Under the pieces are notes generated by a model that made no database searches, was not told the DNA's origin, and worked only from the letters and a program-made list of their open reading frames with translations. Positions 7,896-9,308 of a stretch of 11,624 nucleotides of DNA are shown here, piece by piece. A program made the translations under genes and the position numbers. The stretch's first letter is position 1. Each line of letters opens with the position of its first letter. The DNA is from Enterobacteria phage P4: the sequence record NC_001609.1; one strand, 5' to 3'.

Positions 7896-8175
7896 GCGTC
7901 CTGTCTCCCCGGTCTTTCTGCTGGGCGAGAAAATCGCGGCACAGGCCTTTGGCTTTCAGCTCATTCAGCACAAAATCAATATCTTCATTCAGGTAGCTGA
8001 AAATATGTGGAATGTAGAGCTGATGCAGGCCGGAGAGTTCACGGTGAATCAAATCACCCCCAACAAACCGGGATACGGCGCTGGCGCGGTTGAGCTTATG
8101 GTAAGCCTCAATGCTGAGGTGTTCACGGGCGTCATGACGCGCTGAGACGGTCTGAGGGGCTTTTTTATTACGCAC
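7888..8175 (-). CDS. eps: Epsilon, candidate antirepressor that derepresses the helper prophage (95 aa if GTG start)
   Basis: C-terminal part of the 7888..8460 reading frame. A GTG at 8175-8173 is preceded by GGAGG with 6-nt spacing and overlaps the kil stop by 8 nt, giving 95 aa. The alternative ATG at 8220 (110 aa) would overlap kil extensively. Identity from position between kil and orf151. Confidence 0.5.
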
Positions 8176-8365
8176 GGGACACCTCCACCACCGGCAGACG
8201 GGCAGCAAGGGAGAGCACATAGTCACGGACAAGGGAACGGCGGGCACTGCGTTCATCACCGGCGACGGTGCGAAGCATACAGATACGGGGATGACGGTCT
8301 GCGCGACGGACAGCCGCAAACACAAAGACAAATTCAGGGTGTGAGGGGGTAAGGGTTGTAGCCAT
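8168..8365 (-). CDS. kil: Kil, first translated gene of the early leftward operon (65 aa)
   Basis: Last 65 codons of the 8168..8812 frame ([12 protein letters not shown]...EVSRA). ATG at 8365-8363 is preceded by AGGAGG with about 8-nt spacing; the upstream part of the frame lacks an SD and covers the untranslated leader. Name and size from recalled P4 literature. Confidence 0.5.
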
Positions 8366-8419
8366 GATGGCAGCCTCCTGTGAATAGCAAATAACGCTAT
8401 CGCCGGAGTTCTCACGCTC

Positions 8420-8505
8420 GATGGCGATAGCCCAGACGGGGGTGAGAATACCGGCTTCACAGGATACCGGCCAGCCCGGAGGCTGCCCCGCCTGAGCTAC
8501 CATTG
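8420..8505 (-). ncRNA. cI: Candidate cI immunity RNA region (approximate)
   Basis: Untranslated leader between the predicted PLE and kil. Contains a segment (plus-strand GGGGGTGAGAATACC, 8437-8451) complementary to a 10-mer direct repeat GTTCTCACGC found upstream (8660-8669) and downstream (8408-8417), matching the seqA/seqB/seqC logic of P4 immunity. Boundaries are approximate and from memory. Confidence 0.3.
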
Positions 8506-8689
8506 ACTCTGCGGCATAATGAGCGGACGCGGGCAGGATGCACGGAATGCCATCTGCACGACTGACCACACACCACACCATAATCTGGCGCTCTGTGGCA
8601 TTGATTGCGACACAAAAAAAGACGCGTGGCGCGTCATATGTCGCCTGTGAATTGCTCGGGTTCTCACGCCCGGCTGCCGATTTTGCGGC

Positions 8690-8729
8690 AGGCGAAAAAC
8701 TATATCCGCAAATGCCGGAAAAAGGCAAG
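8690..8729 (-). promoter_or_regulatory. Candidate early leftward promoter PLE (sigma70-like)
   Basis: On the minus strand, TTGCCT (-35, plus 8729-8724), about 18-nt spacer, TATAGT (-10, plus 8704-8699); predicted start near 8690. Lies just downstream of the vis stop. Confidence 0.3.
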
Positions 8730-8763
8730 CCAGAAAAAGGGAGTTTTTGCAGAGCGGGCATCA

Positions 8764-9030
8764 TCATGCGTCGTACCCCCGTTTGCGTCCGGCAATGCGT
8801 CCGGCCATCCATGCGGTGACTTCAGAGTGCAGCCAGGCCACATTTTTACCGCCAAGACTCACCTGCGGCGGAAATTCCCCCTTACGGATGAGTTCGTAGA
8901 TGGTCGAGCGTGACAGGCCGCACAGGTGCATCACTTCCGGCACACGTAAAAAACGCTCCTGCGTGATGTCCGGCAGCGGCATCAGTGGCGTCACTGGGGC
9001 GGGAGACGGGGAAGAAAAAACAGCTTGCAT
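8764..9030 (-). CDS. vis: Vis, AlpA/Xis-like helix-turn-helix regulator and excision factor (orf88)
   Basis: 88-aa ORF with ATG at 9030 and GAGG SD 7 nt upstream. Contains the AlpA-family HTH ...[30 protein letters not shown].... First gene downstream of the late leftward promoter. Confidence 0.8.
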
Positions 9031-9132
9031 CGGGCTACCTCGTTAATGTCCATACAGCACCGGATAAGTCCGTCCGGCTTCGGGTAGCGCTTTATTTTGT
9101 GAATATTTTCAGCAGACGCAACAGGGGGGATT

Positions 9133-9150
9133 TGTTCAGGCTGTCTTACA
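9133..9150 (-). promoter_or_regulatory. TGT-N12-ACA dyad: Delta/Ogr-type activator site of the late leftward promoter PLL
   Basis: TGTTCAGGCTGTCTTACA at 9133-9150, the P2/P4 late-promoter activator dyad, about 100 bp upstream of the vis start in the leftward direction. Confidence 0.5.
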
Positions 9151-9179
9151 ATGGCTGTGTGTTTTTTGTTCATCTCCAC

Positions 9180-9209
9180 TTAAAGTCATTTAAAGCCACT
9201 TAAAGCAAT
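9180..9209. promoter_or_regulatory. Three tandem cox-box-like repeats (TTAAAGNNAN) at exact 10-bp spacing
   Basis: TTAAAGTCAT / TTAAAGCCAC / TTAAAGCAAT at 9180-9189, 9190-9199 and 9200-9209, upstream of the PLL activator dyad. Resembles binding sites for helper P2 Cox (and possibly P4 Vis). Confidence 0.45.
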
Positions 9210-9308
9210 TTGTAATTTTTATAGTGAAATACAAATCGTTTCTTCTTATTCATTCCCGGCGAATTAATAAAAACAAACAGTAGTAAACAGCACAAAAAGC
9301 CCATCAAC

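What the first reader, a model, noticed from the sequence alone, without database searches (positions are those of the whole stretch)
8400..8730. Immunity leader: 10-mer direct repeat pair with an internal complementary segment (seqA/seqB/seqC-like) and a leader terminator hairpin
Between the predicted PLE and the kil SD, GTTCTCACGC occurs twice in direct orientation (8660-8669 and 8408-8417) and a complementary stretch GGTGAGAAT lies between them (8441-8449). On the leftward transcript this gives two target sites that can pair with one internal sequence, the arrangement described for P4 RNA-mediated immunity, where a processed CI RNA pairs with upstream and downstream targets to force premature termination. 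A strong intrinsic-terminator-like hairpin (GACGCGCCACGCGTC plus U7 on the minus strand, plus coordinates 8614-8635) lies just downstream of the first target. The long ORFs annotated over this region are probably not translated here.
Basis: partly seen in the sequence, partly recalled or inferred. Interest (0 to 1): 0.7.

Follow-up and report, generated by a model that had tools for sequence, protein, structure and literature searches.

The report
Phage P4 RNA immunity region

Summary
GTTCTCACGC lies at 8408-8417 and 8660-8669, GGTGAGAAT at 8441-8449, and a hairpin followed by seven T lies at 8635-8614 on the minus strand.

The window is phage P4 itself: 8100-9100 is 100% identical to GenBank X02534.1. 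Rfam places a C4-family antisense RNA (P4 CI RNA) at 8507-8420. It places an IsrK-family leader at 8692-8615, running from the PLE start through seqA to the t1 terminator.

In 59 distinct leaders of P4-like elements, seqA, seqB and seqC co-vary three ways. About 99% of cells are paired, against 49% or less in shifted controls, and 12 of 15 and 12 of 16 pairs carry changes on both sides.

The CI main loop (8464-8456) pairs with 8651-8644, just upstream of t1, and with 8384-8376, which overlaps the kil Shine-Dalgarno. This box co-varies just as strongly.

One side claim needs correcting. The long ORF is the gene eta, with kil as its last 65 codons. Its start lies upstream of PLE, so PLE transcripts cannot translate it. 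All 58 distinct relatives keep it open and in frame, and the literature says it is translated from the late promoter PLL to prevent termination. Translation of this ORF would therefore not refute RNA immunity.

Verdict: already known, low interest.

The parts
8699..8728 (-). PLE promoter (TTGCCT, 18-nt spacer, TATAGT); transcription start inferred near 8692
   Evidence: The only sigma-70-like match in 8000-9300. Both hexamers are conserved in most relatives. The Rfam isrK model starts at 8692.
8615..8692 (-). IsrK-family leader RNA (the 'SeqA RNA' of P4): hairpin 1, the hairpin that presents seqA, a spacer, and terminator t1
   Evidence: Rfam RF01394 isrK, 60.8 bits against a gathering score of 50. 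c4-a1b1 RF03163 scores 44.1 bits at 8705-8653, just under its gathering score of 46.7. PMC3632133 and PMC4825925 equate IsrK with P4 seqA.
8660..8669 (-). seqA box 1.
   Evidence: It co-varies with seqB in relatives (helix 1, 6 of 7 pairs with changes on both sides, 99.8% paired).
   Evidence: Inverted repeat I10. Covariation, helix 2: 6 of 8 pairs with changes on both sides, 98.9% paired.
8614..8635 (-). Intrinsic terminator t1 (GACGCG-CCA-CGCGUC followed by U7)
   Evidence: Terminator scan; 3' end of the isrK model; stem kept in relatives, with a GC to CG swap at the closing pair. The name t1 and its dependence on CI and seqA come from my memory of Briani et al. 2000.
8422..8501 (-). cI gene / mature CI RNA (about 80 nt): a 16-17 bp acceptor-like stem ending in CCA, a minor hairpin, a major hairpin and a single-stranded segment
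   Evidence: Rfam RF01695 C4, 74.9 bits against a gathering score of 45, at 8507-8420. MFE -49.5 kcal/mol, z = -5.4. Helices co-vary. The end points are inferred from the stem and CCA; the published length of 79 nt is from memory (Forti 2002).
8456..8464 (-). CI main-loop box (UCCUGUGAA), which pairs with box 2 of seqA and of seqC
   Evidence: 11 alleles, each matched by both of its targets.
8441..8449 (-). seqB box 1.
   Evidence: unpaired in the C4 consensus; 5 alleles.
8408..8417 (-). seqC box 1.
   Evidence: Covariation with seqB is 100% paired with 6 of 7 pairs changed on both sides. The presenting hairpin is 99.1% paired with 3 of 9 pairs changed on both sides and folds at -18.8 kcal/mol.
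8376..8384 (-). seqC box 2 (UUCACAGGA), complementary to the CI main loop; overlaps the first 3 nt of the kil Shine-Dalgarno GGAGG (8378-8374)
   Evidence: Inverted repeat I5. Covariation, helix 1: 6 of 9 pairs with changes on both sides, 98.1% paired.
8168..8365 (-). kil (65 aa), the first gene translatable from PLE transcripts; an Icd-like cell-division inhibitor
   Evidence: Translation. NCBIfam NF033153 phage_ICD_like, 76.1 bits against a cut-off of 25. An SD and ATG are conserved in relatives.
8168..8767 (-). eta (199 aa; ATGATGATG start overlapping the vis stop), the long ORF spanning PLE, seqA, cI and seqC, with kil as its C-terminus. The 214-aa ORF in the finding is this frame extended to an upstream ATG at 8812.
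   Evidence: RefSeq annotates the 199-aa form. The frame is open in 58 of 58 distinct relatives and in frame with kil in 56 of 58. PMC10111431 summarises its translation from the late promoter.

Best explanation
The interval is the immunity leader of satellite phage P4, and the window is P4 itself.

The constitutive promoter PLE (8728-8699, minus strand) starts a leftward transcript near 8692. The first 78 nt form an IsrK-type leader. It shows seqA box 1 in a hairpin loop, then box 2, then the intrinsic terminator t1.

Transcripts that read through t1 contain cI (8501-8422). This folds into a tRNA-like cloverleaf and is cut out as a stable RNA of about 80 nt. According to the literature, RNase P makes the 5' end and PNPase trims the 3' end.

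CI RNA exposes two short segments: its main loop (8464-8456) and a single-stranded stretch, seqB (8448-8442). Both pair with two bipartite targets in new PLE transcripts. seqA lies upstream of cI, and seqC lies downstream and reaches into the kil ribosome-binding site.

Pairing at seqA raises termination at t1, which makes CI autoregulatory. Pairing at seqC blocks kil translation. The untranslated RNA is then terminated at a factor-independent site (t4) and at the Rho-dependent site timm inside kil, so the replication genes downstream stay silent.

Transcripts from the upstream late promoter PLL escape this control. Ribosomes coupled from vis translate the long ORF eta straight through seqA, cI and seqC.

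Shown here: the identity with P4, the RNA family matches, the structures, the three-way covariation of both boxes, and the maintenance of the eta frame. Taken from the literature: RNA processing, the effect on termination, and Rho dependence. Inferred: the exact transcript ends, which structure is t4, and how pairing at seqA promotes t1.
For: Identity: 8100-9100 is 100% identical to X02534.1, 'Bacteriophage P4 essential region'.

RNA families: C4 antisense RNA scores 74.9 bits (gathering score 45) at 8507-8420, and isrK scores 60.8 bits (gathering score 50) at 8692-8615. c4-a1b1, the C4 target motif, has E = 6e-10 at 8705-8653. The same families hit 16 diverged relatives.

Promoter and terminator are at the expected places. 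The CI fold is -49.5 kcal/mol with z = -5.4.

Covariation in 59 distinct leaders drawn from 79 IMG/VR loci:
- CI with seqA: 99.3% paired, 12 of 15 pairs changed on both sides, against 49% or less and 7 or fewer in shifted controls.
- CI with seqC: 98.9% paired, 12 of 16 pairs.
- There are 5 box-1 alleles and 11 box-2 alleles in 22 combinations, almost all matched three ways.
- Cognate duplexes are about 10 kcal/mol more stable than non-cognate ones.

seqC box 2 overlaps the SD of kil. Kil is Icd-like, as in the P1 c4-icd-ant operon (PMC8198154).

Literature: PMC4825925 and PMC3632133 say CI RNA pairs with seqA and seqC and that IsrK and C4 are structural homologues of seqA and CI. PMC5499578 lists CI RNA as an RNase P substrate. 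PMC10111431 describes the roles of eta and kil.
Against: Nothing here contradicts the explanation, but several points remain open.

- The primary P4 papers (Sabbattini 1995, Forti 1995/1999/2002, Briani 2000) could not be read. Published coordinates, the names t1, t4 and timm, and the 79-nt length therefore rest on my memory.
- Sequence alone cannot show termination, processing or Rho dependence.
- No obvious antiterminator structure competes with t1 in the leader fold, so how pairing at seqA enhances t1 is unexplained.
- One natural element (L009) has a seqA that does not match its own CI. This shows the seqA interaction is dispensable in some elements.
- The c4-a1b1 score in P4 itself is 2.6 bits below Rfam's gathering score.
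Confidence: 0.95

Rival explanations
1. Immunity is carried by a protein. This was the old 'ash' reading (137 aa, 8581-8168), or alternatively the N-terminal part of Eta. Under this view the repeats are incidental features of a coding sequence.
For: The 1984 GenBank record annotates 'put. ash gene (aa 1-137)' over the region. Pfam has a Phage_ASH family matching Eta residues 22-146 at 82 bits. The frame is open in all relatives.
Against: Both boxes show three-way compensatory changes that preserve base pairing rather than amino acids. The spacer shows no third-codon-position excess of substitutions: 12, 22 and 19 variable sites at positions 1, 2 and 3. PLE lies inside the ORF, so the constitutive immunity transcript lacks the eta start. 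The region matches two curated RNA families. The literature identifies the immunity factor as an RNA (PMC4825925, PMC5499578).
Confidence: 0.02
2. CI RNA acts only as a translational repressor of kil, as C4 does on icd/ant in P1. Under this view all premature termination is secondary Rho polarity, and seqA and t1 play no regulatory role.
For: seqC box 2 overlaps the kil SD in every relative. The kil 5' region is C-rich and G-poor, with C at 32-36% and G at 22-25%. L009 tolerates a seqA mismatched to its own CI.
Against: seqA co-varies with CI as tightly as seqC does, so it is under selection to pair. It sits directly upstream of a canonical intrinsic terminator conserved in all relatives. As I remember Briani et al. 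2000, CI enhances t1 termination in vitro without host factors.
Confidence: 0.08
3. The 78-nt leader that ends at t1 is itself a trans-acting small RNA, like Salmonella IsrK, which activates translation of a downstream message. Its main job would then not be to serve as a target for CI.
For: It matches the isrK family above threshold. IsrK acts in trans in Gifsy-1 (PMC4825925). IsrK-like elements of P4-like prophages are required in S. Typhi TraDIS screens (PMC3632133).
Against: This role would add to the CI target role rather than replace it. The covariation with CI shows that the target role is under selection.
Confidence: 0.15
4. The repeat pair and the internal complement are chance similarities in a GC-rich leader.
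For: A 10-mer with one mismatch allowed is expected 0.6 times in the window, and 22 of 200 shuffles give two or more matches.
Against: Only 9 of 5000 shuffles of the leader reproduce the full arrangement. The arrangement co-varies across 59 distinct relatives.
Confidence: 0.005

Closest known systems
Satellite phage P4 immunity region (PLE - seqA - t1 - cI/seqB - seqC - kil/eta), Deho/Ghisotti laboratory 1992-2002
   Same: It is the same locus. The sequence is identical to the P4 reference. The promoter, two targets, CI RNA gene, leader terminator and nested kil/eta genes are all present where the literature summaries place them (PMC4825925, PMC10111431).
   Different: Nothing differs.
Phage P1/P7 immI operon: C4 antisense RNA with a'/b' segments pairing to a1/b1 and a2/b2, upstream of icd-ant
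   Same: The RNA family is the same (Rfam C4). The bipartite antisense segments pair with one target upstream and one downstream of the RNA gene, and the upstream target motif c4-a1b1 matches. The RNA is cut from the leader of the operon it controls and is an RNase P substrate (PMC5499578). The first downstream gene is an Icd-like division inhibitor. A P1-like plasmid locus (L083) shows isrK, C4 and icd in the same order.
   Different: In P1 the operon is also repressed by the C1 protein, and the output is control of the antirepressor Ant (PMC8198154). In P4 the RNA is the only immunity factor, and the output is premature termination that silences the replication genes. In P4 a long ORF (eta) is translated across the whole RNA module from a second promoter.
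Salmonella Gifsy-1 IsrK / STnc1160 / orf45-anrP
   Same: The leader is an IsrK-family member that ends at a Rho-independent terminator, followed by a processed stable RNA sharing complementarity with it (PMC4825925).
   Different: IsrK is reported to act in trans to open the RBS of orf45 and so switch on the antiterminator AnrP. In P4 the leader is described as the target of CI RNA.
Retronphage phiR73 and other P4-like satellites (heteroimmune relatives)
   Same: The architecture is the same, with the pairing boxes altered in concert. Relatives here show 5 box-1 and 11 box-2 alleles with matched targets.
   Different: The box sequences differ, which is presumably what determines immunity specificity. 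From memory, P4 and phiR73 are heteroimmune (Sabbattini et al. 1996).

Membership tests
Phage P4 immunity region (type example) | Sequence identity with the P4 early/immunity region | tested here: met
   100% identity over 1001 nt to X02534.1.
Phage P4 immunity region (type example) | An internal segment of the cI RNA gene (seqB) is complementary to one site upstream (seqA) and one downstream (seqC) on the same transcript | tested here: met
   Three-way covariation in 59 distinct relatives.
Phage P4 immunity region (type example) | Constitutive promoter PLE upstream of seqA, and an intrinsic terminator (t1) between seqA and cI | tested here: met
   Consensus matches at 8728-8699 and 8635-8614, both conserved in relatives. 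Promoter activity and constitutive expression were not tested.
Phage P4 immunity region (type example) | CI RNA is processed from the leader by RNase P and PNPase into a stable RNA of about 79 nt | not testable with these tools
   The structural prerequisites are present: an acceptor-like stem, G at the 5' end, and a 3' CCA at 8424-8422. Processing is known from the literature only (PMC5499578; Forti 1995 and 2002 from memory).
Phage P4 immunity region (type example) | CI-dependent premature termination, including Rho-dependent timm within kil | not testable with these tools
   Only indirect signs were found: seqC box 2 overlaps the kil SD, and the kil 5' region is C-rich and G-poor.
Rfam RF01695 C4 antisense RNA | Covariance-model score at or above the gathering score (45 bits), full-length match | tested here: met
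   74.9 bits, model positions 1-87 of 87, at 8507-8420 on the minus strand.
Rfam RF01394 isrK | Covariance-model score at or above the gathering score (50 bits), full-length match ending in a terminator | tested here: met
   60.8 bits, model positions 1-77 of 77, at 8692-8615 on the minus strand.
Rfam RF03163 c4-a1b1 (targets of C4 RNA) | Covariance-model score at or above the gathering score (46.7 bits) | tested here: inconclusive
   P4 scores 44.1 bits (E = 6e-10), with a C-C mismatch at the base of hairpin 1. Eight relatives score 46.8-51.5 bits.
Icd-like host cell division inhibitor (NCBIfam NF033153) | Profile score above the curated cut-off (25 bits) for the first gene downstream of the antisense target | tested here: met
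   Kil scores 76.1 bits and the C-terminus of Eta scores 73.3 bits.

The most novel reading that the evidence does not exclude
The two pairing boxes may work as an independently reassorting, combinatorial immunity code across P4-like satellites. At least 5 box-1 and 11 box-2 alleles occur in 22 combinations among 59 distinct leaders, each matched at CI, seqA and seqC. Natural recombinants exist in which seqA no longer matches the resident CI (L009). If both boxes contribute to specificity, the heteroimmunity groups of satellites could be read directly from sequence, and there would be far more groups than the P4/phiR73 pair studied so far. I found no systematic description of this in the held literature, but it is a direct extension of known C4/CI biology and may well have been noted in papers I could not read.
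Probability: 0.5. Interest if true: 0.3.

Novelty: already known. Interest (0 to 1): 0.1.

Why it matters

The system itself is important. It is a phage repressor made of RNA that is cut from the transcript it controls and acts by forcing premature termination. It has been worked out experimentally since 1992.

The comparative data gathered here add strong phylogenetic support for both pairing boxes. They also suggest that the long ORF eta is selected to be translatable rather than for its N-terminal amino-acid sequence. Finally, they flag database annotations ('ash family protein', Pfam Phage_ASH) that lie over a non-coding RNA gene.

Tried and rejected
1. Primary P4 papers. I tried to read them for published coordinates (PMC176756, PMC94026 and the DOI of Forti 1999). 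None is held. The full P4 records X51522 and NC_001609 are not in the collections. The names t1, t4 and timm and the 79-nt length are therefore from memory.

2. CI minor hairpin against the kil ribosome-binding site. A perfect 10-nt complementarity exists between 8487-8478 and 8378-8369 (I4). It is 94.7% paired in relatives but has no compensatory change, and it breaks in L062, L066 and L068. I did not include it in the mechanism.

3. Antiterminator competing with t1. I looked for a structure that CI pairing at seqA could disrupt. The leader MFE already contains t1 and nothing convincing competes with it. The way seqA pairing promotes t1 is left unexplained.

4. Protein-level selection on the N-terminal part of eta. 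Substitutions in the t1-cI spacer are not enriched at third codon positions. The evidence for translation rests instead on the open, in-frame ORF and on the literature.

5. A small hairpin, 8400-8396 / 8388-8384, just upstream of seqC box 2. It is present in many relatives but absent or shifted in several. It is too weak to claim.

6. Literature searches for eta/kil and seqB terms mostly returned unrelated papers.

Full report
**Observation.** GTTCTCACGC occurs exactly twice in the window, at 8408-8417 and 8660-8669. GGTGAGAAT lies between the two copies at 8441-8449. On the leftward (minus-strand) RNA the two repeats read GCGUGAGAAC and the internal segment reads AUUCUCACC, giving a perfect 7-bp core (GUGAGAA with UUCUCAC). 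With a few mismatches the complementarity extends to 14 of 16 nt with the upstream copy and 15 of 19 nt with the downstream copy (I2 and I1). The hairpin GACGCG-CCA-CGCGUC followed by seven U lies at 8635-8614, and it is the only terminator-like site in 8000-9300. Only 9 of 5000 dinucleotide-preserving shuffles of the leader contain a direct 10-mer pair with a complement of 7 nt or more between the copies.

**Identity.** Window 8100-9100 is 100% identical to GenBank X02534.1, 'Bacteriophage P4 essential region DNA'. That 1984 record annotates a 'put. ash gene' of 137 aa at window 8581-8168, which was the older, protein-based view of this region.

**RNA family matches.** A whole-window Rfam scan gives two matches above the curated thresholds:
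- C4 antisense RNA (RF01695) scores 74.9 bits at 8507-8420 on the minus strand.
- isrK (RF01394) scores 60.8 bits at 8692-8615 on the minus strand.

A third family, c4-a1b1 ('a1, b1 targets of C4 antisense RNA'), scores 44.1 bits at 8705-8653, just under its threshold of 46.7. It passes in eight relatives. Two papers state that IsrK and C4 are structural homologues of what the P4 literature calls seqA and CI RNA (PMC3632133, PMC4825925).

**Anatomy on the minus strand.**
- A sigma-70-like promoter, TTGCCT-18-TATAGT, lies at 8728-8699. This is PLE, with the start inferred near 8692.
- Hairpin 1 spans 8691-8674.
- A 4-bp hairpin (8672-8657) displays CGUGAGAA, which is seqA box 1, in its loop.
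- After eight nucleotides comes UUCACAGG (8651-8644), then terminator t1 (8635-8614).
- After a variable spacer, cI (about 8501-8422) folds into a 16-17 bp acceptor-like stem ending in CCA, a minor hairpin, and a major hairpin with a 12-nt loop. An 8-nt single-stranded stretch holds UUCUCAC. The fold is -49.5 kcal/mol with z = -5.4.
- Downstream, the second 10-mer (seqC box 1) sits in the loop of a 9-bp hairpin (8431-8423 / 8404-8396). The 5' arm of that hairpin is also the 3' strand of the CI stem.
- Then UUCACAGGA (8384-8376) runs into the kil Shine-Dalgarno GGAGG (8378-8374) and the ATG at 8365.

The CI main loop UCCUGUGAA (8464-8456) is perfectly complementary to 8651-8644 and to 8384-8376 (I10 and I5). 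These two targets form a second direct-repeat pair (D2). Each target is therefore bipartite, and the orientation and order of its two boxes fit antiparallel pairing with the loop and the single-stranded stretch of CI. This is the a'/b' with a1b1/a2b2 layout known for C4 RNA of P1 and P7. As I recall, Forti et al. 2002 also concluded that the main loop and the single-stranded bulge of CI pair with the targets.

**Comparative test.** A search of IMG/VR with the 199-aa Eta protein returned 79 loci at 51-99% amino-acid identity. Their leaders give 59 distinct rows in alignment A1.

| Structure tested | Cells paired | Pairs changed on both sides | Shifted controls |
|---|---|---|---|
| CI with seqA (15 pairs) | 99.3% | 12 | 49% or less paired; 7 or fewer pairs |
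| CI with seqC (16 pairs) | 98.9% | 12 | 49% or less paired; 8 or fewer pairs |
| Cis helices: leader hairpins, t1, CI cloverleaf (43 pairs) | 99.8% | 12 | 44% or less paired; 1 or fewer pairs |
| Hairpin presenting seqC (9 pairs) | 99.1% | 3 | 63% or less paired |

CI carries five box-1 alleles (UUCUCAC, UUUCCAC, UUCCUAC, ACGCCAA, CUGCAAA) and eleven box-2 alleles, in 22 combinations. In nearly every element both targets match both boxes perfectly. Cognate CI-target duplexes are about 10 kcal/mol more stable than non-cognate ones.

**The long ORF.** The 214-aa ORF (8812-8168) is the frame of eta. The published start, as I recall it and as RefSeq annotates it, is the ATGATGATG at 8767-8759, which overlaps the vis stop codon. 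This gives 197-199 aa. Its last 65 codons are kil. Kil matches the Icd-like division-inhibitor family at 76 bits.

PLE lies inside this ORF, so PLE transcripts cannot translate it from its start.

The frame is nevertheless kept open. It has no stop codon between the eta start and the kil ATG in 58 of 58 distinct relatives, whereas the other two frames carry 1-9 stops. The distance is a multiple of three in 56 of 58 relatives, across eleven length classes from 336 to 402 nt. Substitutions show no third-position bias. Selection therefore appears to act on translatability rather than on the N-terminal amino-acid sequence. This fits the published account summarised in PMC10111431, which cites Forti 1999:
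- Full-length Eta is translated only from the upstream late promoter.
- It is translationally coupled to the alpA homologue.
- Its translation prevents termination.
- Kil is the truncated form translated on read-through.

Translation of the long ORF therefore coexists with RNA immunity and would not refute it.

**Mechanism.**
- Shown here: the parts, their structures, the selected pairings, the overlap of seqC box 2 with the kil SD, and maintenance of the eta frame.
- From the literature: CI RNA is cut from the leader (it is an RNase P substrate, PMC5499578) and pairs with seqA and seqC to cause premature termination (PMC4825925). From my memory of Briani 2000, t1 needs CI and seqA and serves CI autoregulation, while t4 and the Rho-dependent timm silence the replication genes.
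- Inferred: pairing at seqC blocks kil initiation and leaves a C-rich, G-poor RNA open to Rho. The hairpin that presents seqC, or its surroundings, may be t4.
- Not explained: how pairing at seqA enhances t1. No competing antiterminator is evident.

**Comparison and novelty.** This is not just a member of a known family. It is the type example itself. The closest separate system is the P1/P7 immI module (C4, icd, ant), which shares the RNA family, the target motif, the gene order and the Icd-like first gene (PMC8198154). That module differs in its output and in having a protein co-repressor. Gifsy-1 IsrK/STnc1160 is a further relative in which the leader RNA has a reported trans-acting role (PMC4825925).

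**Verdict.** The finding is already known, so interest is low. The most novel reading left open is that the two boxes form a reassorting combinatorial immunity code across satellites. That would be a modest extension of known biology.

Noticed in passing
window 8330-8704 (-); also L082 1397-1615 and L083 1535-1654: Pfam PF10554 'Phage_ASH' matches Eta residues 22-146, which is exactly the stretch that encodes the IsrK-like leader and the CI/C4 RNA. RefSeq annotates short 'ash family protein' CDSs of 39-72 aa directly over C4 RNA genes on plasmids. With no codon-position signal in P4-like elements, this protein family seems to be driven largely by nucleotide conservation of an RNA gene.
   Followed up: partly
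window 8692-8693: The P4 reference reads ...TTTTTCGCCTGCCG..., whereas its closest relatives read ...TTTTTCCGCTGCCG.... The P4 version puts a C-C mismatch at the base of leader hairpin 1 (flagged by Rfam) and drops c4-a1b1 below its threshold. This may be a GC/CG transposition in the 1984 sequence or a real polymorphism.
   Followed up: no
window 8478-8487 versus 8369-8378 (-): A perfect 10-nt complementarity exists between the CI minor hairpin (GGCAGCCUCC) and the kil ribosome-binding region (GGAGGCUGCC). It is 94.7% paired in relatives but without any compensatory change, and it is lost in L062, L066 and L068. It could sequester the kil RBS in cis in the unprocessed leader, or it could be coincidence.
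   Followed up: yes
L009 (IMGVR_UViG_2698536560_000011), leader region: This is a natural chimera. Its seqA carries GUGAGAA and UCUAACGG boxes, but its CI and seqC carry the GUGGAAA and UUCACAGG set, so seqA mismatches its own CI (6 of 7 and 5 of 8 pairs) while seqC matches fully. The pattern suggests recombination between seqA and cI, and it shows that seqA pairing is dispensable for a resident element.
   Followed up: partly
L022 and L055 (IMG/VR loci): In these elements the seqC box 2 carries small deletions and no longer matches the CI loop. In L055 the eta frame is broken as well, with the ORF truncated at 140 aa. They are probably decaying satellites.
   Followed up: no
E. coli complete genomes (search with window 8350-8730): 2825 of 5426 complete E. 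coli genomes hold a match to this leader, and 1193 of the matching places are on plasmids. The plasmid matches cover only the cI part, at about 82% identity. They include a P1-like phage-plasmid (isrK, C4, icd; L083) and a 34-kb plasmid where C4 sits next to an HTH regulator and a NusG-family pseudogene (L082).
   Followed up: partly
window 8764-8767: The vis (AlpA-family, 88 aa) stop codon overlaps the first eta ATG in the sequence ATGA, followed by two more ATGs (ATGATGATG). This start is conserved in 59 of the 73 loci checked. It is a classic translational-coupling junction, consistent with PMC10111431.
   Followed up: partly
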